Shown here piece by piece: positions 8,150-33,960 of a stretch of DNA of 64,000 nucleotides. Source of the stretch: Patescibacteria group bacterium (GTDB taxonomy: Bacteria; Patescibacteriota; Patescibacteriia; Veblenbacterales; UBA10138). The stretch is from assembly GCA_041648575.1 (NCBI GenBank), contig JBAZOT010000003.1, positions 14,895 through 78,894 on the forward strand. The letters run 5' to 3'. Both the position numbers and the translations under genes were made by a program. Below the pieces are notes generated by a model. It did no database searches, was not told the origin of the DNA, and worked only from the letters and a program-made list of their open reading frames with translations. Every line of letters starts with the position of its first letter. The stretch's first letter is position 1.

Positions 8150-8310
8150 CCCACCTCCGCCCTGGCTGCAGGTAAATTTTCCAACCATTTTCTTATTCGC
8201 ACGAATAAGAAAGTAGTAATCCAGGGATAACCACTTAAATACCCAACTTCTTTACCCGCCTCCGCTAAAGCTTCTGGCTTCGCTCTAGCTTAGGCGGACA
8301 ACTCGGTGGG
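8150..8310. other. GC-rich multi-hairpin element between the gyrB stop and the SDR cassette
   Basis: Long-range pairs are CCCACC/GGTGGG, TCCGCC/GGCGGA and CCCTGG/CCAGGG. There is a perfect 10-bp hairpin at 8190-8211 and a local hairpin CCGCCT-AAGCT...AGCTT-AGGCGG. Confidence 0.4.
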
Positions 8311-26931: not shown

Positions 26932-27327
26932 CTAATTTGTTAATTGATAATATAATTTGTCCAGCTTTCCTTTAACGCTAAAATCGAACCGTTCGCCATC
27001 TATAACTACCACTACTCCACCCAGCAAATGTGGCTTAACCTGCCATTCAACAGTAAATTCTCCCGGAACAGATTTTTTCAAGCTACTTACTAAGCCTTTT
27101 TGCTCTTGAGTATTAAGCTCCCTGCCGGTGGTAATTAATATTTGATGTTCCTGAGTTAAAGAATGCCAAACATCGTTAACCTCCTGAACAATTCTCTTGC
27201 GCCAAACAAAATGCTTGTTTTTTAGAACTTGTTGCCATAAACAGTCAATAATTTTATCTTTATTTGCTGGCTGCCGCAAGACATCGGAGATTAATTGTTT
27301 AGCGTAATAGCGAGGACTTATTTTCAT
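26932..27327 (-). CDS. atpH: ATP synthase F1 delta (OSCP) subunit, short form
   Basis: Lies between atpF and atpA. C-terminal LLGGVVVVIDGERFDFSVKGKL. At 131 aa it is shorter than a typical delta subunit. Confidence 0.7.
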   Translation of the reverse strand: MKISPRYYAKQLISDVLRQPANKDKIIDCLWQQVLKNKHFVWRKRIVQEVNDVWHSLTQEHQILITTGRELNTQEQKGLVSSLKKSVPGEFTVEWQVKPHLLGGVVVVIDGERFDFSVKGKLDKLYYQLTN

Positions 27328-27329
27328 AA

Positions 27330-27845
27330 TTATTTTTTGTGATTACGATTAGTTATTTCTTGCATTGCTTCATCAATCACTTTTTTGTCTAAAGTAGGAG
27401 TTGTTACTTTACCTAAAACTTTAGCCACTGCTTGGACCACTAAACTAGAGGCCTGCTTTTTAACTTCATTTAACATCTCTTCTTTCTCCACTATAAATTT
27501 TTGACGTGTCTCCTGAACCACTCGTTCTGCTTCGGTACGTACTTTTTGCAACGTTTCCTGACGCTGGACTTCGCTTCTGGCTTCACCCTGGCGCTGAATT
27601 TCTTCCGACTGTTTTCTAGCCTCAGTTAAAACCTCTTCTCGAGTTATGGTTAATTGCTTCATTTCTTGTTCAATCCGTTTGGCGTCGGCTAGACTTTTTT
27701 CTATTTCCTTGGTCCGACTGTCCATAGTTTTCATTAATGGTTTAAGTGCAAATTTCCACAATACTCCTATTACAATACCGAAATTGATTAATTGGGCAAT
27801 CATTAATTTCCAATCAACGTGAAATGTATTTATAAAATCTTCCAT
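27330..27845 (-). CDS. atpF: ATP synthase Fo subunit b
   Basis: One N-terminal TM helix followed by a long charged coiled coil. The operon position fits. Confidence 0.8.
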   Translation of the reverse strand: MEDFINTFHVDWKLMIAQLINFGIVIGVLWKFALKPLMKTMDSRTKEIEKSLADAKRIEQEMKQLTITREEVLTEARKQSEEIQRQGEARSEVQRQETLQKVRTEAERVVQETRQKFIVEKEEMLNEVKKQASSLVVQAVAKVLGKVTTPTLDKKVIDEAMQEITNRNHKK

Positions 27846-27916
27846 AAATATTAATTAAAAATAATCATTTTTCGGCAGAAGGCTTGCGTTTTTCAAACCT
27901 TCTGAATGAAAAACAA

Positions 27917-28174
<258 letters not shown>

Positions 28175-28223
28175 TTATTATTTAACGTCACCAGCAAATA
28201 CTCAGTTAATTAATAAATGCAAA

Positions 28224-29153
28224 TTAATGTTCCTCTGCTGTCGAAGCAACAGAAAAATAAACTAAAGTTAGCATGGCAAAAATCAACGCCTGAACAACAC
28301 CCACTATTACTTCTAAAAACATGAAGGGTATAGGCAAGACAAAAGCAAAAATTACGGCAATTGATGCTAATAATACTTCACCTGCAAAAATATTACCAAA
28401 TAATCGAAAAGATAGTGAAGCGACTTTGGCCGCTTCTCCAATAATTTCAATCAAACCAACAAAAAATTTTACTGGACTGATAAAAATTACTGCCGGCTCT
28501 TTAATTATTTTCTTTGGTATATTTATTAATTCCTTAATGTTAATAAACTTATTAAAATATTTCCAAATGCCTACTGAAATAACGCCAAAAAGATTTGAAC
28601 CAATCACCGCCATCACTGCCAAAACAAAAGTAGTGTTGAAATCTGCGGTAGCGCCACGTAACAATGGAACAAAAACTTGGTGTCCGCTCTCAACCTCTAT
28701 AAAACCAACCGACCCAACTCCTGGTAACAATCCTAACCAATTATTCAATAGAATAAAAATAAAAATCACAAAAACAAAGGGAAAAATTTTAAGAGATTTT
28801 TTTCGATCACCGGTAACTTGGTCAGCCAACCCTAATGACCCTTCAATAATAGTTTCCAACGCAGTTTGCAACCGCGAGGGAATTCTGGTTATTCTTTTGC
28901 TAATTACCATAGCAAATAAAACCAAAATCACCACTACCAACCAAGAATTAATTAATGAATTAGTAACTGTAAAATTGCCAATGTGAAAAATCGGTTCTGA
29001 ATACAAAGTAACTTCGTGAGTTACCTGCTGTTCTATATTTTCTTCATTAATCAAGGTAGTTTCATTATTAACTGGTAATTGAAGATTATTGGTTTCTTCT
29101 GCTAACATCATTAGTGGTCTTTCTTTGACGCGCTTCTTTGTCTGCTTCCGCAA
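28224..29153 (-). CDS. atpB: ATP synthase Fo subunit a
   Basis: Polytopic protein with LSFRLFGNIFAGE (the conserved Arg helix). The real start may be the internal MMLAEE (about 29111). Confidence 0.85.
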   Translation of the reverse strand: MRKQTKKRVKERPLMMLAEETNNLQLPVNNETTLINEENIEQQVTHEVTLYSEPIFHIGNFTVTNSLINSWLVVVILVLFAMVISKRITRIPSRLQTALETIIEGSLGLADQVTGDRKKSLKIFPFVFVIFIFILLNNWLGLLPGVGSVGFIEVESGHQVFVPLLRGATADFNTTFVLAVMAVIGSNLFGVISVGIWKYFNKFINIKELINIPKKIIKEPAVIFISPVKFFVGLIEIIGEAAKVASLSFRLFGNIFAGEVLLASIAVIFAFVLPIPFMFLEVIVGVVQALIFAMLTLVYFSVASTAEEH

Positions 29154-29367
29154 TATATCTGGAAGCGATGCGAGTTATAGACAAGGTAGCAACAACAATT
29201 CCTAAACTTAATAAAATTAAAGTATACAGAGGTTCGCTATTATATATTTTATCCAAAATCCTGCCGCCATAAAGCGCCGCGATTATAGGCACCACAATTA
29301 ACCCAGTTACTTCCGAAAAAAGCGCCAGGGCTTGGTGCCACCACTGGTTATTTTTTTGCTCAATCAT
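29086..29367 (-). CDS. AtpZ/AtpI-like small membrane protein
   Basis: 93 aa with two TM helices. It is the first gene of the atp operon. Confidence 0.55.
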   Translation of the reverse strand: MIEQKNNQWWHQALALFSEVTGLIVVPIIAALYGGRILDKIYNSEPLYTLILLSLGIVVATLSITRIASRYIAEADKEARQRKTTNDVSRRNQ

Positions 29368-29493
29368 AGCTTTATTTTACCCCTAGACGCTCCTTTTGGA
29401 CAGCGCAATCTAAAGCATTGATTATTAACTCGCTCGGACTAAATAAACTTATGATGATAAATAAAAAGGGCAGTGGTAAAACCTCAAGCGAGT

Positions 29494-29522
29494 ATTATAA
29501 CCATTTTTTATGATTACGTCAA
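29494..29522 (-). promoter_or_regulatory. atp operon promoter TTGACG-17-TATAAT
   Basis: Reverse complement reads TTGACG TAATCATAAAAAATGGT TATAAT, about 120 nt upstream of ATG 29367. Confidence 0.65.
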
Positions 29523-29602
29523 TGGTTAATAAATTTTTTGGCTAAAATTAGATAAAAAACAAATATAACTCTAATTTTTAAGAGTTTTTTATCTATTATA
29601 AT

Positions 29603-30649
29603 TTATTCATCCTCGTTCTTCGGCTTATCTAAAACTAATGGTTCAATCTCGGCCGCCGTTCCAGAAATTCTTAGCACATCCTTATCTATCTTCCCCAATT
29701 CTTTATAAGCAATATTGTAAGTACTAACAGTTGTTCCTAAATGCCCACCCAACTTTTTCATATACTCTTCGTAACTGGCAATATGTCTCCCTAACGCTTC
29801 TACGTTTTTTCTAATCTCTTTAGCCGATTCTTCTATTTGTAAAGCTTTCAAACCCTGCAGCACAGTTTGTAAATATGCCAAAAAAGAAGTTGGCGAAACT
29901 ATAATCACATGTTTTTCTTTAAACGCATACTCAATTAAATCACGGGTATTAACTTTTACCGCGCCAACCTGTGTCACTAACAAATCATAATAAATTGCCT
30001 CATGCGGAATAAACATAAAAGCAAACTCCATGGTTTTTTCAGCTGGTTTTACGTATTTTGAAGTTTCATCAATTCGCGCCTTTAAATCAGCTTTAAAGGT
30101 TTTTTCTAACCGCTCGCGTTCTACTGGATCTCTTTCTTCAGCTAAACGATTATAATTTTCCAGAGAAAACTTAGAATCAATGGGAATAATTTTGTCTTTT
30201 ACAAAAACTACTGCGTCTACAATCGTACCGTCTTTAAATTCATATTGCATCTGGTAACTGCCAGTTGGTAAAACATTTTTTAATAAAGTCTCTAAATAAT
30301 ATTCACCCAATATTCCCCGCTGCTTTGGATTTTTCAAAATATCTTGTAAACTTTGCAGCTGATCAGCAAAATTAACCACCTGCTTGTTGGTTTCATCCAG
30401 CTTAGTCAGACGCTCGGTTACATCCCGTATTATTTTAGCTGACTCCCCAAACTGCTGTTGCATAGCCTTGGTTGATTCGCCCAATTTATTATCCAAAGTT
30501 CTGGTAATCTCATTTAGCTGGTTTTGGAGCATTAATAAACTATTTGCATCGGGTGCTGAACCAGTAGAAATGCGCGATTTCAATAATAAAAACAAGACGA
30601 CAAACCCTACTAGCACGACAATTAAAAGTATAATAAATTCTATACTCAT
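29603..30649 (-). CDS. rmuC: DNA recombination protein RmuC
   Basis: N-terminal TM helix and coiled coil, then the nuclease-like core FAFMFIPHEAIYYDL...VIIVSPTSFLAYL. Confidence 0.85.
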   Translation of the reverse strand: MSIEFIILLIVVLVGFVVLFLLLKSRISTGSAPDANSLLMLQNQLNEITRTLDNKLGESTKAMQQQFGESAKIIRDVTERLTKLDETNKQVVNFADQLQSLQDILKNPKQRGILGEYYLETLLKNVLPTGSYQMQYEFKDGTIVDAVVFVKDKIIPIDSKFSLENYNRLAEERDPVERERLEKTFKADLKARIDETSKYVKPAEKTMEFAFMFIPHEAIYYDLLVTQVGAVKVNTRDLIEYAFKEKHVIIVSPTSFLAYLQTVLQGLKALQIEESAKEIRKNVEALGRHIASYEEYMKKLGGHLGTTVSTYNIAYKELGKIDKDVLRISGTAAEIEPLVLDKPKNEDE

Positions 30650-30655
30650 AGAATT

Positions 30656-30683
30656 ATTATAACAGAACTTCGTTCTTTTGCCA
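30656..30683 (-). promoter_or_regulatory. promoter TGGCAA-16-TATAAT (TGT extended), with the -10 box 6 nt from the rmuC ATG (leaderless)
   Basis: Reverse complement reads TGGCAA AAGAACGAAGTTCTGT TATAAT AATTCT ATG. Confidence 0.5.
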
Positions 30684-30688
30684 GGATC

Positions 30689-30716
30689 TTATTTACTATA
30701 AAAATTGTGTTATACT
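30689..30716 (+). promoter_or_regulatory. extended -10 promoter (TGT TATACT) for the TonB-like gene
   Basis: TTATTT-16-TGTTATACT. The RBS AAGGAG lies 8 nt before ATG 30778. Confidence 0.4.
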
Positions 30717-30777
30717 TAAAGTAAATCTAACAAAAAGTGCCATTTTACAAATCAATACCCCTGAAAGGAGTAACGCC

Positions 30778-31488
30778 ATGACTAAAGCTCTGACTTTTAA
30801 TCGTACTACTTTTCCCCTTCTTTACCGTCGCTATTTAAGTATTGCTTTAACTATAGCAATCTTTGTACATCTTGCGGTAATTGCTGTTTATTATATTGTC
30901 TCGTCATTTACCGTTGAAGAGTCAATAGTAATGGTCAGACTAACAAAATATATCGACCTACCACCTCCACCATCAATAGATCAGGCTAATAATCCACCAA
31001 TAGTTAACTTTAATATACAAGCAACAATTGGAAAAGGGATACCCGTCCCTGTGCTTGACGCAGAAGTCAATCCCGATCAAACCATTGCTTCACAAACAGA
31101 ACTATCACAGCAAGCTAACGCCACCAGTAATATTTTAAATACTCAATCAAATGTAGAATTTATTCTTGACCAAAAAATTAATATTGAAGACGAGGAACCT
31201 CCTGATTTTGTGCCAGTAGAGAAACAACCTGTGCCTGTTAAGACTCAACAACCAGCATATCCTGAAATTGCCAGACGAGCTGGTGTGGAAGGAACTGTTT
31301 GGGTAAAAATTCTTATAGATAAAGAAGGTAAAGCTAAGAAAGCGGTAATTATTAAAAGCGATGCAGAGATATTTAATGAAGCGGCAATTCAGGCTGCACT
31401 GCAATGGGTGTTTACGCCCGCTATGATGAATAATGGTCCAGTTCAAGTATGGGCCGCTGTTCCTTTTCGTTTTAAATTAAATAAATAA
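30778..31488 (+). CDS. TonB-like protein (N-terminal TM, Pro-rich linker, TonB C-terminal domain)
   Basis: Carries LPPPPSIDQANNPP, and a C-terminus PAYPEIARRAGVEGTVWVKILIDKEGKAKKAVIIKSD...ALQWVFTPAMMNNGPVQVW. Confidence 0.65.
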   Translation: MTKALTFNRTTFPLLYRRYLSIALTIAIFVHLAVIAVYYIVSSFTVEESIVMVRLTKYIDLPPPPSIDQANNPPIVNFNIQATIGKGIPVPVLDAEVNPDQTIASQTELSQQANATSNILNTQSNVEFILDQKINIEDEEPPDFVPVEKQPVPVKTQQPAYPEIARRAGVEGTVWVKILIDKEGKAKKAVIIKSDAEIFNEAAIQAALQWVFTPAMMNNGPVQVWAAVPFRFKLNK

Positions 31489-31526
31489 AAAAACTGCTTT
31501 GACAACATCAACTCAATAAACAAAAC

Positions 31527-31556
31527 AATCCCGTGTATTCCATCACGGGATTTTAA
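31527..31556 (+). terminator. intrinsic terminator of the TonB-like gene
   Basis: AATCCCGTG pairs with CACGGGATT, followed by TTTTAATTT. Confidence 0.6.
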
Positions 31557-31591
31557 TTTACCAAATAAATGTAATAATCCGAGTCGACAAC

Positions 31592-31629
31592 TAGTCATTT
31601 TTATGTCTGGCCAGACATAAAAATGACTA
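31592..31629. repeat. 38-bp perfect palindrome TAGTCATTTTTATGTCTGG|CCAGACATAAAAATGACTA
   Basis: Read directly from the sequence. It shares the outer arms CAACTAGTCATTT...AAATGACTA with 32712-32749. Confidence 0.8.
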
Positions 31630-31764
31630 TCCCAATTTAAAGGGGAAATGGAGAAAATTTTTGGAATAAAATACATTCGAACCGCCACGCGATTTTAAAT
31701 ACCAAAAAAGGGCCACAAAACCAACTAAAACTATTATGATTAAAAATATAAATTCCGTATTCAT
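31627..31764 (-). CDS. possible 45-aa hydrophobic peptide (leaderless)
   Basis: My translation is MNTEFIFLIIIVLVGFVALFWYLKSRGGSNVFYSKNFLHFPFKLG. TGC-TAGAAT (31771-76) lies 6 nt before the ATG. It is below the ORF-track size cutoff. Confidence 0.3.
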   Translation of the reverse strand: MNTEFIFLIIIVLVGFVALFWYLKSRGGSNVFYSKNFLHFPFKLG

Positions 31765-31778
31765 AACACCATTCTAGC

Positions 31779-31815
31779 AAAAAAGAAAGGGTCTGGAAAT
31801 ACAATCCCAGACCCC
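31779..31815 (-). terminator. intrinsic terminator of the 240-aa gene
   Basis: The minus strand reads GGGTCTGG...CCAGACCC followed by TTTCTTTTTT. Confidence 0.6.
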
Positions 31816-31843
31816 ATGAAACTACTATCTAATGGCCTTAGTG

Positions 31844-32566
31844 CTAAAACGATTGAAATGATCGGACAATCTTATCCACCCAGCTAGCCCTACGCATTAA
31901 CTCGTTAGCTATCTGCGGTGCTTGACCCTCCATTACCTTCGCCTCCTCAATCAGTATATTCCTCATCTCAACATTGGTGAGACCAGAAACATCATACCAA
32001 GCCAACGCGGTATCCAGATAAGAAATATTACCTGGTTCCATGTATCGTTCTCCAGTAACAACACTACGCATACCGTCGCTATAGAAACTGAGATACAAAT
32101 TACCAACCATCACCGCCGAGCGCGAAGCTGATACCGTATCACCGCACTTGATGTATAAGTGATAAGCATACTCTGGAAAACTCTTTCTCCCATAACCATC
32201 ATCACAATGTGGTATCCCATAGTATGTTAAGTCTGCTAGGAGTAAGCCCCACCCCTGACGTCTCTTGAACCAGTATGGATCATCACAGGAACTATCACAT
32301 ATCTGATAAATCCTTCTCACTGTGTTTACAAACTCCCAACCACAATAAAATGGGTCATCGGTCCCTGAATAACCCCCTACATCAGTCCATGAATAATTAT
32401 CTGGGTTATATCTCATACCCTCCACAATCTTATACTCGACCAGATTCTTGACCAAAGTGCGATAAGACTGTTCAGGGGACTCTTGCTTTTCCTTGGCAGG
32501 TAAAGTGTTATTTATGACTAAACCAGCCACAGCCAAAAAGATAATGATTGTAAAGTACTTTTTCAT
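31844..32566 (-). CDS. secreted Cys-rich hypothetical protein
   Basis: 240 aa with signal peptide MKKYFTIIIFLAVAGLV and 8 Cys. By eye it is more GC-rich at codon third positions than its neighbours. It has its own promoter and terminator. Confidence 0.55.
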   Translation of the reverse strand: MKKYFTIIIFLAVAGLVINNTLPAKEKQESPEQSYRTLVKNLVEYKIVEGMRYNPDNYSWTDVGGYSGTDDPFYCGWEFVNTVRRIYQICDSSCDDPYWFKRRQGWGLLLADLTYYGIPHCDDGYGRKSFPEYAYHLYIKCGDTVSASRSAVMVGNLYLSFYSDGMRSVVTGERYMEPGNISYLDTALAWYDVSGLTNVEMRNILIEEAKVMEGQAPQIANELMRRASWVDKIVRSFQSF

Positions 32567-32651
32567 ATAACACCTGTTTATTTTTGTTTAATAAATTCCC
32601 CATTATTTGGGACTTTTTTAAAGATCTTTACTGTTTTTACAATAACAATAC

Positions 32652-32680
32652 ATAATACGGCAAACTACTTTATTTGTCAA
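32652..32680 (-). promoter_or_regulatory. promoter TTGACA-17-TATTAT for the 240-aa gene
   Basis: Reverse complement reads TTGACA AATAAAGTAGTTTGCCG TATTAT. AGGTG lies 6 nt before the ATG. Confidence 0.6.
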
Positions 32681-32711
32681 TATCCATACTAAACTAGATT
32701 AAATCACCAAC

Positions 32712-32749
32712 TAGTCATTTACCCTTTCGCGCGAAAGGGTAAATGACTA
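32712..32749. repeat. 38-bp perfect palindrome TAGTCATTTACCCTTTCGC|GCGAAAGGGTAAATGACTA
   Basis: Read directly from the sequence. It lies between the arsR-like stop and the promoter of the 240-aa gene. Confidence 0.8.
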
Positions 32750-32777
32750 AAGAAATAATTTATGCATAAACAGTTAA

Positions 32778-33056
32778 TTAGCTAGTCTGACGGACTTGCT
32801 TAAGAAGCTGCTGCAACAAACTACTTAACCCCTCATCTAAACTATATAGACCTACGTATCCAAATTGCCTGCGTTCTAAAAACCCCACTTGCCGCAATAG
32901 CACTAAGTGTTTAGAGGTGGACTTAAATGATAGATGAATCGCCGTCGCAACGTCACCTACTGTCCGCTCTTTACCATCGGACAACAACCTTAGTATCTCC
33001 AGCCGCTTTCTCGCACCCAGCGCCCGGTAAACCTTTTCTAACTCTCGTAGACGCAT
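32778..33056 (-). CDS. ArsR/SmtB-family transcriptional regulator
   Basis: 92 aa with a winged HTH: LGARKRLEILRLLSDGKERTVGDVATAIHLSFKSTSKHLVLLRQVGFLERR. I see no obvious metal-binding Cys. Confidence 0.8.
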   Translation of the reverse strand: MRLRELEKVYRALGARKRLEILRLLSDGKERTVGDVATAIHLSFKSTSKHLVLLRQVGFLERRQFGYVGLYSLDEGLSSLLQQLLKQVRQTS

Positions 33057-33062
33057 GTTGGT

Positions 33063-33100
33063 AGTATATCATATTTACTGATTCGCGCGAAAGGGTAAAT
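33063..33100 (-). promoter_or_regulatory. leaderless arsR promoter (TGA TATACT, 6 nt from the ATG) overlapped by a degenerate copy of the TTTACCC..GGGTAAA palindrome
   Basis: ATTTACTGATTCGCGCGAAAGGGTAAAT (33073-33100) covers the -35 position and may be an operator. Confidence 0.45.
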
Positions 33101-33120
33101 AATCATATAAACCAACACAT

Positions 33121-33960
33121 TTACAAACTAAATAAATTTCTCGCATTTTGAGTTGTAACCCTAGCCAGCTCGTCTAAACTTATATTTTTCAATTCAGCTA
33201 TTTTCTTTGCCACCTCCACTATATACGCCGGCTCGTTGCGGGTGCCCCGATAAGCTTGGGGGGCCAGATACGGCGCGTCTGTTTCTACCATTATCCTATC
33301 AATTGGAGTTTCTTTTACTACTTTTAACAATCCCGGACTGGCATTTTTAAAAGTAATAATTCCGGTAAACGATAATAAAAATCCTAAATCTAAAAATTGT
33401 TTAGCTTGCTCTTGGGTACCTAAAAAACAATGAGCCACGCCCTTTTTTGATAATCTACCTTTGTCTAATTCTTGTTTTAAAATCATCAACAAATCATCAT
33501 AAGCTTCACGGCAATGAATAATAACAGGTAAATTAAGTTCGTCGGCTAAAGTAATATGCTGCCTAAACAATTCTTGTTGCTTTGTTTTAACTTCTGTCTT
33601 ATCAACGCCATCTGGAAAACGATAATAATCCAATCCACACTCCCCTATGGCTACCACTTTACTACCAGAACCACGTGCTAAAGCAGAATATCTTGATGGA
33701 TTAAAAACCTCGGCCCGAGTTTTAAAATAAATTTCTTCCTCATCCACTTCTTGCTCAAATAAATGAATGGGATGAAGCCCAATCGCGGCATATAAATTAT
33801 CATGTTCCTGTGCTAATTTTACTGCCCGCTCCGATGTGTCCCATTGACTGCCAAGATTAATAATACAAGTCACACCAGCACGATGAGCTCGTTTAATTAC
33901 CTCATCAGTATCATTCTTAAACGCATTAAAATTCAAATGGCAGTGAGTATCAATCAACAT
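33121..33960 (-). CDS. tatD: TatD-family metal-dependent hydrolase/DNase
   Basis: Carries MLIDTHCHL, GECGLDY, PVIIHCREA and VETDAPYLAP. Confidence 0.9.
   Translation of the reverse strand: MLIDTHCHLNFNAFKNDTDEVIKRAHRAGVTCIINLGSQWDTSERAVKLAQEHDNLYAAIGLHPIHLFEQEVDEEEIYFKTRAEVFNPSRYSALARGSGSKVVAIGECGLDYYRFPDGVDKTEVKTKQQELFRQHITLADELNLPVIIHCREAYDDLLMILKQELDKGRLSKKGVAHCFLGTQEQAKQFLDLGFLLSFTGIITFKNASPGLLKVVKETPIDRIMVETDAPYLAPQAYRGTRNEPAYIVEVAKKIAELKNISLDELARVTTQNARNLFSL

What the first reader, a model, noticed from the sequence alone, without database searches (positions are those of the whole stretch)
31592..33100. 38-bp perfect palindromes with shared outer arms punctuate the islet; one version overlaps the arsR promoter
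What the sequence shows: 31592-31629 (TAGTCATTTTTATGTCTGG|CCAGACATAAAAATGACTA) and 32712-32749 (TAGTCATTTACCCTTTCGC|GCGAAAGGGTAAATGACTA) are perfect palindromes. They share flanks and arms (CAACTAGTCATTT ... AAATGACTA) but have different cores. A degenerate copy of the second (ATTTACTGATTCGCGCGAAAGGGTAAAT, 33073-33100) covers the -35 region of the leaderless arsR promoter. The perfect copy lies about 35 bp upstream of the -35 of the secreted-protein gene. Established background: ArsR/SmtB repressors bind inverted repeats overlapping their promoters. Inference: TTTACCC-N-GGGTAAA is the operator of this ArsR, which would then control both itself and the secreted protein. Conserved arms with variable cores also recall recombination sites.
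Basis: partly seen in the sequence, partly recalled or inferred. Interest (0 to 1): 0.5.

Follow-up and report, generated by a model that had tools for sequence, protein, structure and literature searches.

The report
Operator palindromes bracketing two regulator cassettes
The two perfect 38-bp palindromes are most likely binding sites of two different small DNA-binding regulators: one belongs to the neighbouring ArsR-like gene, and the other is left over from a PaaX-like regulator gene that has been deleted. The unusual part is that in these tiny-genome (CPR) bacteria such regulator genes carry a copy of their own site at both ends.

Summary
**Observation:** confirmed. Window 31592-31629 (pal1) and 32712-32749 (pal2) are perfect 38-bp palindromes. 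An independent assembly also contains them.

**pal2:** it is the 3' copy of the operator of the adjacent ArsR-like gene. Its 5' copy (33073-33100) covers the -35 and spacer of a leaderless promoter. Of 76 related loci, nearly all from Patescibacteria, 70 have the TTCG[CT][GA]CGAA-core site upstream, 66 downstream and 60 both. Neighbouring genes vary. Only 1 of 66 downstream sites is followed by a T-run.

**pal1:** it has an unrelated core. In relative L217 that core flanks a PaaX-like regulator gene on both sides. Here only the last 14 codons of that gene survive (31636-31677), fused to 29 codons of rmuC.

**Shared arms:** CAACTAGTCATTT / AAATGACTA are native to the pal1 locus and absent from the ArsR 3' site in eight relatives. 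So pal2 is a chimera with an ArsR-type core inside PaaX-type arms, which puts an old recombination junction inside it.

**The islet:** it lies in a roughly 5-kb recombinant tract, in a slot that holds different regulator cassettes or solo palindromes in relatives.

the operator idea is supported. Control of the secreted-protein gene is not shown. An attC-like recombination site is not supported. No protein-DNA binding was tested.

The parts
32712..32749 (.). pal2: perfect 38-bp palindrome. It is the 3' copy of the ArsR-like operator (inner 28 bp ATTTACCCTTTCGCGCGAAAGGGTAAAT) with outer TAGTC/GACTA arms found only in this genome.
   Evidence: The inner 28 bp is conserved 17-67 nt after the arsR stop in L046, L047, L048, L051-L054, L219 and L222. 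As RNA it would fold at -31.2 kcal/mol, but no T-run follows.
33073..33100 (.). 5' operator copy (imperfect palindrome) covering the -35 (TTCGCG) and spacer of the arsR promoter.
   Evidence: The same asymmetric sequence (..CCC[AT]TTCGCGCGAATCAGTAAAT) is conserved in L046, L047, L048 and L051. The site centre is 31 nt from the ATG.
32778..33056 (-). ArsR-like regulator gene (92 aa, HTH_5, no cysteine). The -10 box TATACT is at 33063-33068, 6 nt before the ATG (leaderless).
   Evidence: Pfam HTH_5, 32.6 bits against a cutoff of 22. Profile hits to CzrA, HlyU and SmtB structures. The 6-nt gap between -10 and ATG is conserved in five loci.
31592..31629 (.). pal1: perfect 38-bp palindrome. It is the relic 3' operator-type site of a deleted PaaX-like regulator (core ATGTCTGG|CCAGACAT).
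   Evidence: Homologues sit at the same position after the TonB-like gene's terminator in L217 and L215. The same core lies upstream of the PaaX-like gene in L217. A further homologue with a compensatory change is in L175.
31636..31677 (-). Remnant of the PaaX-like gene: the last 14 codons (NVFYSKNFLHFPFK).
   Evidence: tblastn gives 13 of 14 residues identical to the C-terminus of the 184-aa PaaX_M protein of L217 (Pfam).
31678..31799 (-). rmuC' fragment: the ancestral rmuC promoter (TTTCCA-17-TAGAAT) plus the first 29 codons. It is fused in frame to the PaaX-like remnant, giving the 45-aa chimeric ORF at 31627-31764.
   Evidence: It matches the rmuC promoter and N-terminus of L048.
31844..32566 (-). 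Secreted 240-aa ORFan (sec240), with its own promoter at 32652-32680 and terminator at 31788-31815. It occupies the variable slot after pal2.
   Evidence: No homologue other than itself was found. L048 has an unrelated 69-aa ORF in the same slot.
31588..31600 (+). Copy 1 of the 13-nt direct repeat CAACTAGTCATTT (native flank and arm of pal1).
   Evidence: L217 has CAACTAATCATTT at the homologous position.
32708..32720 (+). Copy 2 of the 13-nt direct repeat CAACTAGTCATTT (flank and arm of pal2, absent from relatives).
   Evidence: Flanks in relatives are listed.
33121..33340 (-). 3' end of tatD, carrying a recombination breakpoint at about 33330-33340.
   Evidence: Identity to L214 is 97-100% at 33329 and above, and 71-83% at 33129-33328.
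31527..31552 (.). Canonical bidirectional intrinsic terminator of the TonB-like gene, included for contrast with the palindromes.
   Evidence: It is conserved in L214, L215 and L217.
8187..8214 (.). Orphan ArsR-family-type site ATTTTCTTATTCGCACGAATAAGAAAGT. No regulator gene lies beside it.
   Evidence: (I17).

Best explanation
**What the palindromes are.** They are operator-type binding sites of two different winged-helix autoregulators. Each of those regulators normally carries a copy of its site at both ends of its own gene.

**pal2.** It is the 3' copy for the ArsR-like protein encoded next to it.
- The 5' copy (33073-33100) overlaps the -35 and spacer of a leaderless promoter, so the protein would repress its own transcription by blocking the promoter.
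- The 3' copy lies 29 nt after the stop codon. Its role is inferred, not shown. The most likely role is a second high-affinity site that either blocks read-through out of the cassette when occupied, or cooperates with the 5' site through a roughly 350-bp DNA loop. The hairpin it would form in RNA may add partial termination.

**pal1.** It is the equivalent 3' site of a PaaX-like regulator. That gene was lost when a segment from a tatD-arsR-X-rmuC type genome was joined illegitimately to codon 171 of the PaaX-like gene. The segment carried arsR, pal2, the secreted ORFan gene and the first 29 codons of rmuC. pal1 is therefore probably an orphan site in this genome.

**Shared outer arms.** They are not a common functional motif. 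pal2 here is a chimera of an ArsR-type core inside PaaX-type arms, a scar of cassette replacement at a palindrome.
For: **Shown for pal2.**
- The two-site architecture holds in 60 of 76 ArsR-like loci.
- 139 of 175 core matches in 796 kb lie within -130 to +200 nt of the gene.
- The upstream and downstream 28-mers are 0.87 identical within a locus and 0.70 between loci.
- The module keeps both sites in several different gene contexts (tatD-rmuC, folD-integrase, after rplU). Neighbouring genes show no conserved partner.
- Only 1 of 66 downstream sites has a T-run after it.
- Long perfect arms are the minority. What is universal is a pseudo-palindrome of about 28-30 bp, the size of ArsR/SmtB operators.
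- The protein is an ArsR/SmtB-family member.

**Shown for pal1.**
- L217 has TonB, terminator, a pal1 homologue, a PaaX_M gene, a site with the same core, and then tatD.
- The window keeps 13 of the last 14 residues of that protein.
- L215 has a solo homologue with a compensatory T:A to C:G change, and L175 has another.
- Other PaaX-like genes (L102, L115) are also bracketed by their own repeats.

**Shown for the history of the region.**
- Ancestral synteny is seen in L048 and L219.
- The rmuC' fragment matches the rmuC promoter and N-terminus of L048.
- There is a sharp identity break in tatD against L214.

**Inferred only.** Protein binding itself, the role of the 3' site, and the order of the recombination events.
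Against: - No binding data exist.
- The distance from the 3' site to the next gene varies from 7 to 165 nt, and the spacing between the two sites (336-386 bp) is not phased with the DNA helix. Neither looping nor control of a downstream promoter is therefore favoured by geometry.
- The ArsR-family loci were collected with a peptide pattern from the recognition helix, so the constancy of the helix and core is partly an ascertainment effect.
- The link between pal1 and the PaaX-like regulator rests on one gene-bearing locus (L217, and L218 from the same organism) plus solo sites.
- A PaaX-like gene could exist elsewhere in this genome, outside the window.
- The origin of the 13-nt identity is reconstructed, not observed. 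The outer extensions of these palindromes are normally private to each site, so the event was unusual.
- pal2 would form a very stable RNA hairpin (-31 kcal/mol), so a purely RNA-level role is not excluded.
Confidence: 0.7

Rival explanations
1. The palindromes act mainly as RNA hairpins: factor-independent (possibly bidirectional) terminators or 3'-end stabilisers for arsR and for the rmuC'/PaaX-like transcript. On this reading the resemblance to the promoter site is incidental or secondary.
For: - Both fold as 17-bp-stem hairpins far more stable than shuffled sequence (-31.2 and -26.5 kcal/mol, z = -8.4 and -4.7).
- Both lie just downstream of ORFs.
- arsR has no other terminator before the next promoter.
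- In L047 and L051 the site lies between convergent genes.
Against: - Only 1 of 66 downstream sites has at least 5 T in the 8 nt after the arm.
- Ordinary terminators in the same region do have GC stems followed by T-runs.
- Most family members are imperfect pseudo-palindromes whose perfect arms are only 6-7 nt. These would fold poorly, yet they are conserved in sequence and match the promoter copy.
- Some overlap the stop codon.
Confidence: 0.15
2. The palindromes are site-specific recombination sites (attC-like or Xer/dif-like) that delimit mobile gene cassettes. The conserved outer arms would be recognised by a recombinase and the cores would be free to vary.
For: - The two palindromes share 13 + 9 nt of arms and flank, and differ in their cores.
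- In gene orientation, variable DNA begins right after AAATGACTAGTTG at both sites. Those segments are the ORFan gene and the horizontally acquired TonB-like gene.
- The tatD/TonB/rmuC slot holds different contents in L214, L215, L217, L048 and the window.
- A tyrosine recombinase lies next to the arsR 3' site in L047 and L051.
Against: - No recombinase is present in the 64-kb window.
- The 'variable cores' are each conserved, in other genomes, together with a particular regulator family.
- The arms are not found on the ArsR site in eight relatives.
- The palindromes are perfect, with no extrahelical bases and no R''/R' boxes on both sides.
- A scan of metagenome contigs for these arms found no family with diverse cores, only one pal1 homologue.
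- Partner sites for tyrosine recombinases need identical central regions, which these lack.
Confidence: 0.1
3. The palindromes are members of a dispersed repeat family (REP/MITE-like) or are an assembly artefact.
For: Assemblers break at these sequences, which could suggest repeats.
Against: - There are only two copies in 64 kb, with no target-site duplications or terminal repeats.
- Independent assemblies read through the palindrome centres.
- Contig breaks are expected from the palindromic k-mer structure alone.
Confidence: 0.03

Closest known systems
ArsR/SmtB-family autoregulatory operators (for example the 12-2-12 inverted repeats bound by SmtB and CzrA; from my own knowledge of the family)
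   Same: A small winged-helix dimer protein. An imperfect inverted repeat of about 26-30 bp overlaps its own promoter, implying auto-repression. The fold assignment is supported by Pfam HTH_5 and by profile hits to CzrA, SmtB and HlyU structures.
   Different: The protein has no cysteine and no recognisable alpha3 or alpha5 metal site, so it is probably not a metal or arsenic sensor. A second, often better, copy of the operator sits immediately after the stop codon in 66 of 76 loci. No resistance gene or other conserved target gene accompanies it.
Operator pairs that bracket or lie inside the regulated unit and cooperate by looping or roadblock (lambda OL/OR around cI-rex, lac O1/O2, gal OE/OI; from my own knowledge)
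   Same: Two copies of one protein's site a few hundred bp apart, one on the promoter and one downstream, enclosing the regulator's own gene as in the lambda immunity region.
   Different: There is no evidence that an ArsR-like dimer forms higher oligomers. Site spacing (336-386 bp) is not helically phased across relatives. The function of the 3' copy is untested.
PaaX-type regulators (winged helix plus Cas2-like PaaX_M domain)
   Same: The relative's gene next to the pal1 homologue hits PaaX_M (E = 1.7e-15). Palindromic sites flank it.
   Different: The CPR proteins are short (about 185 aa) and are not next to phenylacetate genes. In the window the gene itself is gone apart from 14 codons.
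Homology-facilitated illegitimate recombination and quasi-palindrome template-switch mutagenesis (known mechanisms; from my own knowledge)
   Same: One end of the islet is a homologous crossover (identity break inside tatD). The other end is an illegitimate in-frame join between rmuC codon 29 and PaaX-like codon 171. Extension of palindromes to perfect symmetry is what template switching produces.
   Different: The events are inferred from comparisons with relatives that are not the true parents. The exact microhomology and the order of events cannot be fixed.
Integron attC sites
   Same: Imperfectly conserved palindromes at cassette boundaries, with conserved outer parts and variable inner parts.
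   Different: The palindromes here are perfect, have no extrahelical bases, have no R''/R' boxes on both sides, have no integrase nearby, and have cores tied to regulator families.

Membership tests
ArsR/SmtB-family regulator with autoregulatory operator | The protein has the ArsR-type winged helix-turn-helix fold. | tested here: met
   Pfam HTH_5, 32.6 bits (cutoff 22). A profile of 21 homologues hits Lmo1102, HlyU, CzrA, SmtB and CadC over nearly full length, E = 2e-11 to 1e-6.
ArsR/SmtB-family regulator with autoregulatory operator | An inverted repeat of about 26-30 bp overlaps the regulator's own promoter. | tested here: met
   33073-33100 covers the -35 (TTCGCG) and spacer, and ends 4 nt before the -10 box. 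The core is present upstream of the gene in 70 of 76 loci.
ArsR/SmtB-family regulator with autoregulatory operator | The protein binds the repeat and represses transcription. | not testable with these tools
   Support is comparative only: co-occurrence and within-locus co-variation.
ArsR/SmtB-family regulator with autoregulatory operator | Metal or metalloid sensing site (alpha3 Cys pair, or alpha5 His/Asp/Glu). | tested here: not met
   The window protein has no cysteine, and no conserved Cys or His cluster appears in alignment A2. Membership is by fold. 'Arsenic repressor' is not implied.
Intrinsic (Rho-independent) terminator | A stable GC-rich hairpin immediately followed by a U-tract. | tested here: not met
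   The hairpin is stable. But only 1 of 66 downstream sites has at least 5 T in the next 8 nt, and the promoter/terminator scan does not call pal1 or pal2.
Integron attC / cassette recombination site | An integron integrase (or any tyrosine recombinase) is associated with the array. | tested here: not met
   tblastn with the L047 and L051 recombinases finds nothing in the window. The recombinase is adjacent only in two relatives.
Integron attC / cassette recombination site | An imperfect palindrome with R''/R' boxes (RYYYAAC / GTTRRRY) and extrahelical bases. | tested here: not met
   Read directly from the sequence: the palindromes are perfect. GTTG is present on one side only, and no AAC box lies on the other side.
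Dispersed palindromic repeats (REP/BIME, MITE) | Many copies per genome, often with target-site duplications or an associated transposase. | tested here: not met
   Two copies in 64 kb. Nothing similar in viral contigs. One homologue among 86 metagenome matches. The complete genome was not available.
Operator of a PaaX-like regulator (pal1) | The same site is found beside a PaaX-like gene, at its promoter. | tested here: met
   In L217, ATGTCTGGCCAGACAT lies about 55-75 nt upstream of the start of the PaaX_M gene, and a pal1 homologue lies just after its stop. The window retains 14 codons of that gene.
Operator of a PaaX-like regulator (pal1) | The cognate regulator is present in this genome. 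| tested here: inconclusive
   None in the 64-kb window apart from the remnant. The rest of the genome was not searched.

The most novel reading that the evidence does not exclude
In CPR/Patescibacteria, small winged-helix autoregulators of at least two unrelated families (ArsR-like and PaaX-like) form portable cassettes that are bracketed by their own operator at the 5' and 3' ends. The operator palindromes would then double as hot spots where cassettes are swapped or deleted at fixed chromosomal slots. Solo and chimeric palindromes such as pal1 and pal2 would be what such swaps leave behind.
Probability: 0.25. Interest if true: 0.7.

Novelty: new variant of a known kind. Interest (0 to 1): 0.5.

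Why it matters
**Regulation in CPR bacteria.** These bacteria have very few transcription factors, and almost nothing is known about how they regulate genes.
- This work gives a concrete, testable operator (ATT..C..ATTCG[CT][GA]CGAAT..G..AAT) for an ArsR-like family found across many Patescibacteria lineages.
- It shows a recurring layout in which the regulator's site is repeated right after its own stop codon. That layout is not part of the textbook ArsR/SmtB picture, and it recurs in PaaX-like regulators.

**Interpreting orphan palindromes.** An orphan perfect palindrome can be the fossil of a lost regulator cassette. This matters when palindromes in metagenome-assembled genomes are interpreted.

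**Assembly.** The same palindromes fragment short-read assemblies.

**Limits.** For this particular window the practical consequence is modest. The sites are probably ordinary autoregulatory operators plus a relic.

Tried and rejected
- **Rfam.** Only sub-threshold miRNA-hairpin look-alikes hit the palindromes. The whole window contains only a tmRNA.
- **Viral contigs.** 41 matches to the arm pattern, none with a palindromic N20 core or the CAAC flank.
- **Metagenome scan for the arms.** 86 loci, essentially chance matches except L175. The window's own genome is not in that collection.
- **IS end hypothesis for L175.** The neighbouring IS982-like element has its own terminal repeats 110 bp away, so the palindrome is not an IS end.
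- **A conserved partner gene for the ArsR-like regulator.** None found. Neighbours are diverse hydrolases, transporters and others.
- **Homologues of the secreted 240-aa protein, to trace the cassette.** It is an ORFan.
- **Integrase in the window.** None.
- **Homology between the pal1 and pal2 flanks beyond the 13 + 9 nt.** None.
- **General concerted evolution of outer arms within a locus, as an explanation for the shared arms.** Rejected, because outer extensions are usually private to each site.
- **Literature searches for this regulator-palindrome pair in CPR.** Nothing relevant.
Full report
**1. The observation**

- Window 31592-31629 and 32712-32749 are perfect palindromes with 19-nt arms and no spacer. 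They are the only two of that quality in the window.
- The pattern AGTCATTT-N(10-40)-AAATGACT occurs only at these two places, and never occurred in 100 shuffles.
- The two palindromes share 13 nt on one side (CAACTAGTCATTT) and 9 nt on the other (AAATGACTA). Their inner 20 nt are unrelated (read).
- A degenerate copy of the second palindrome lies at 33073-33100.
- Contigs of an independent assembly (Logan, SRR8449827) read through the centres of both palindromes and then stop (L002, L004). So the palindromes are real sequence. As expected for de Bruijn graph assemblers, they fragment assemblies. The same happens in relatives (L046, L216, L222).

**2. Gene map (genes are on the minus strand unless stated)**

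| Coordinates | Feature |
|---|---|
| 33121-33960 | tatD |
| 33073-33100 | 5' site |
| 32778-33056 | ArsR-like gene (HTH_5) |
| 32712-32749 | pal2 |
| 32680..32652 | strong promoter |
| 31844-32566 | 240-aa secreted protein, no Pfam match, with a canonical terminator at 31788-31815 |
| 31627-31764 | 45-aa ORF with its own promoter |
| 31592-31629 | pal1 |
| 31527-31552 | canonical bidirectional terminator |
| 30778-31488 (plus strand) | TonB_C gene |
| 29603-30649 | rmuC, followed by the atp operon |

The organism is a Patescibacteria (CPR) MAG.

**3. pal2 is the 3' copy of the ArsR-like protein's operator**

Close homologues of the 92-aa protein were located in their contigs.
- In every case the gene has the asymmetric site ..ATTTACC[CT][AT]TTCGCGCGAATCAGTAAAT 4 nt before a -10 box. 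The -10 box is followed by exactly 6 nt and the ATG. The leaderless geometry is therefore conserved.
- In every case it also has a (near-)perfect ATTTACCCTTTCGCGCGAAAGGGTAAAT 17-67 nt after the stop codon.
- This holds in at least three different gene contexts: tatD-arsR-rmuC in L048 and L219, folD/arsR/tyrosine recombinase in L047 and L051, and after rplU in L222.

A scan of species-representative genomes returned 77 loci, almost all from Patescibacteria. Of 76 loci analysed:
- The core [TGA]TCG[CT][GA]CGA[ACT] lies within 130 nt upstream in 70, within 200 nt downstream in 66, and in both places in 60.
- 139 of all 175 core matches in 796 kb fall in those narrow windows.
- The upstream and downstream 28-mers of one locus are 0.87 identical, against 0.70 between loci. 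Outside the core the figures are 0.81 and 0.61.
- Arm sequences change by lineage (TTTACCC.., TATTCGCTTATTCGC.., TAGTCTCCTAGTCGC..), and both copies change together.

The genes next to the module are highly variable, with no conserved partner.

This is the pattern expected for a protein and its binding site. The protein is a bona fide ArsR/SmtB-fold member. It lacks any cysteine or obvious metal site, so 'ArsR' describes the fold and not the ligand.

**4. The 3' copy is not an ordinary terminator**

- Only 1 of 66 downstream sites is followed by a T-run. Genuine terminators in the same region have one.
- Averaged over the family, palindromy extends about 15-16 nt from the centre.
- Perfect arms of at least 15 nt occur in only 18 of 66 downstream and 11 of 70 upstream sites. 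The conserved entity is therefore a pseudo-palindromic site of about 28-30 bp, not a hairpin.
- The 3' site is anchored to the arsR stop codon and sometimes overlaps it. It lies 7 to 165 nt from the next start codon. It is a property of the regulator cassette, not of the downstream gene.
- In the window it lies 31 nt upstream of the -35 of the secreted-protein gene, where a repressor would not block the promoter.
- I therefore infer, without having tested it, that the 3' copy is a second binding site. It would act as a protein-dependent roadblock or insulator, or cooperate with the promoter site. The strong RNA hairpin of this particular perfect version (-31 kcal/mol) could add some termination.

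**5. pal1 belongs to a different, deleted regulator**

- The TonB-like protein has its nearest non-CPR relatives in Ignavibacteria and Bacteroidota (60-67% identity). It has three CPR relatives.
- Their contigs show what the slot between the TonB-like gene and tatD looks like elsewhere:

| Locus | Content of the slot |
|---|---|
| L214 | only a 24-bp palindrome, AGAACTATTCAC\|GTGAATAGTTCT |
| L215 | a solo 40-bp perfect palindrome, ATCCAGTGATTTATGTCCGG\|CCGGACATAAATCACTGGAT. It has the pal1 core with a compensatory T:A to C:G change |
| L217 | CAACTAATCATTTTTATGTCTGGTCAGGCATAAAAATGATAA, then a 184-aa PaaX_M-type regulator gene (Pfam E = 1.7e-15), then AAAATATGTCTGG\|CCAGACATATTTT in that gene's promoter region, then tatD |

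- So the pal1 core brackets a PaaX-like gene in the same way that the ArsR core brackets arsR.
- The window retains the last 14 codons of that gene (31636-31677, 13 of 14 residues identical), fused in frame to the first 29 codons of rmuC. The 45-aa ORF is that chimera.
- Two more PaaX-like genes (L102, L115) are also flanked on both sides by their own repeats. In L102 the upstream one is imperfect and the downstream one perfect.
- A further pal1 homologue with a compensatory A:T to C:G change sits in an unrelated high-GC contig. It lies outside the terminal repeats of a neighbouring IS982-like element (L175).

**6. History of the islet**

- L048 and L219 show the arrangement tatD-arsR-(short variable slot)-terminator-rmuC.
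- The rmuC' fragment in the window matches the rmuC promoter and N-terminus of L048. The full-length rmuC is orthologous from about codon 40 onward.
- Comparison with L214 shows a roughly 5-kb recombinant tract with a more diverged piece at the tatD end:

| Window region | Identity to L214 |
|---|---|
| 26960 to about 28250 | 99-100% |
| 28260-31492 | about 90% |
| 31493-33128 | not alignable |
| 33129-33328 | 71-83% |
| from 33329 on | 97-100% |

- The simplest reading is as follows. DNA from a tatD-arsR-X-rmuC type genome replaced most of the PaaX-like cassette. One crossover was homologous, inside tatD. The other was an illegitimate join between rmuC codon 29 and PaaX-like codon 171.
- The order and number of events are inferred.

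**7. The shared arms**

- CAACTA[G/A]TCATTT is native to the pal1 locus (L217).
- None of eight relatives has TAGTC/GACTA or CAAC on the ArsR 3' site.
- Outer extensions of these palindromes are normally private to each site.
- A 13-nt match at the same register cannot be chance (about 1e-8).
- pal2 in this genome is therefore a chimera of an ArsR-type core inside PaaX-type arms. This implies a junction inside the palindrome, at the ATTT/AAAT boundary that both site types share, followed by symmetrisation of the other arm.
- The alternative is a short templated transfer from pal1, which lies 1.1 kb away. I cannot decide between the two.
- As a result, 13-nt direct repeats now flank the 1,107-bp segment that carries the ORFan gene and the chimeric ORF.

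**8. Verdict**

- The palindromes are real and non-random.
- The operator interpretation for pal2 and the promoter copy is well supported by comparative evidence, though not by any binding data.
- The idea that the perfect copy controls the secreted-protein gene is not supported.
- The 'recombination site' reading is not supported in the attC or site-specific sense.
- The slot is nonetheless a hot spot of cassette turnover, and pal2 carries a recombination scar.
- The regulator-bracketed-by-its-own-operator layout recurs in two wHTH families across CPR. I found no description of it in the searchable literature. It is the most interesting by-product of this work.

Noticed in passing
window 8187-8214: An orphan ArsR-family-type site (ATTTTCTTATTCGCACGAATAAGAAAGT). 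It lies in the 336-bp gap between the gyrB 3' end and an SDR gene. It belongs to a sub-class typical of other CPR lineages, and no regulator gene is beside it. It could be a regulon target or a relic of another lost cassette.
   Followed up: partly
window 30778-31488 (+): The TonB_C gene in this Patescibacteria genome is 60-67% identical to Ignavibacteria and Bacteroidota TonB proteins. It is found in only a few CPR relatives, so it was apparently acquired horizontally. Its role in a cell presumed to lack an outer membrane is unclear.
   Followed up: partly
window 31844-32566 (-): The 240-aa signal-peptide protein has no Pfam match. It has no homologue other than itself among 5.8 billion clustered proteins. 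Its GC content (about 0.44) is higher than that of its surroundings (about 0.36).
   Followed up: partly
window 31627-31764 (-): A 45-aa chimeric ORF: the RmuC N-terminal transmembrane segment (29 aa), then the last 14 aa of a PaaX-like protein, then LG. It keeps an intact leaderless promoter (TTTCCA-17-TAGAAT, 6 nt, ATG). Its stop codon is the TAG of the pal1 arm.
   Followed up: yes
window 26960-33560 vs L214 (GCA_043806155.1): The two genomes are nearly clonal (99-100%) except for a roughly 5-kb tract (about 28260-33330) that is about 90% identical or unalignable. This is a clear homologous-recombination import spanning atpB, rmuC, the TonB-like gene and the 3' end of tatD.
   Followed up: partly
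L214 4592-4615; L215 6789-6828: The same intergenic slot in relatives holds solo perfect palindromes. L214 has AGAACTATTCAC|GTGAATAGTTCT, which resembles an ArsR-type core with symmetric G-to-A / C-to-T changes. L215 has a 40-bp pal1-type palindrome.
   Followed up: partly
L047 5857-6669; L051 6487-7326: In the two relatives whose ArsR proteins are 81-83% identical, a tyrosine recombinase gene converges on the ArsR 3' palindrome. No such gene is in the window.
   Followed up: partly
L079, L080, L083, L092, L122 (coordinates): Some loci carry a third, or even fourth, copy of the ArsR-type palindrome 0.4-1 kb away. Each encloses one extra gene, which suggests small local regulons or tandem cassette boundaries.
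   Followed up: no
window 30656-30684, 31771-31799, 33063-33068: The promoters of rmuC, rmuC' and arsR all have a -10 box followed by exactly 6 nt and the ATG, with no Shine-Dalgarno sequence. Leaderless mRNAs seem common in this genome, although the secreted-protein gene does have a leader with AGGTG.
   Followed up: partly
L002, L004, L046, L216, L222 contig ends: Short-read (k = 31) assemblies consistently terminate inside these perfect palindromes. Regulator cassettes of this kind will therefore be systematically fragmented or lost in CPR MAGs.
   Followed up: partly
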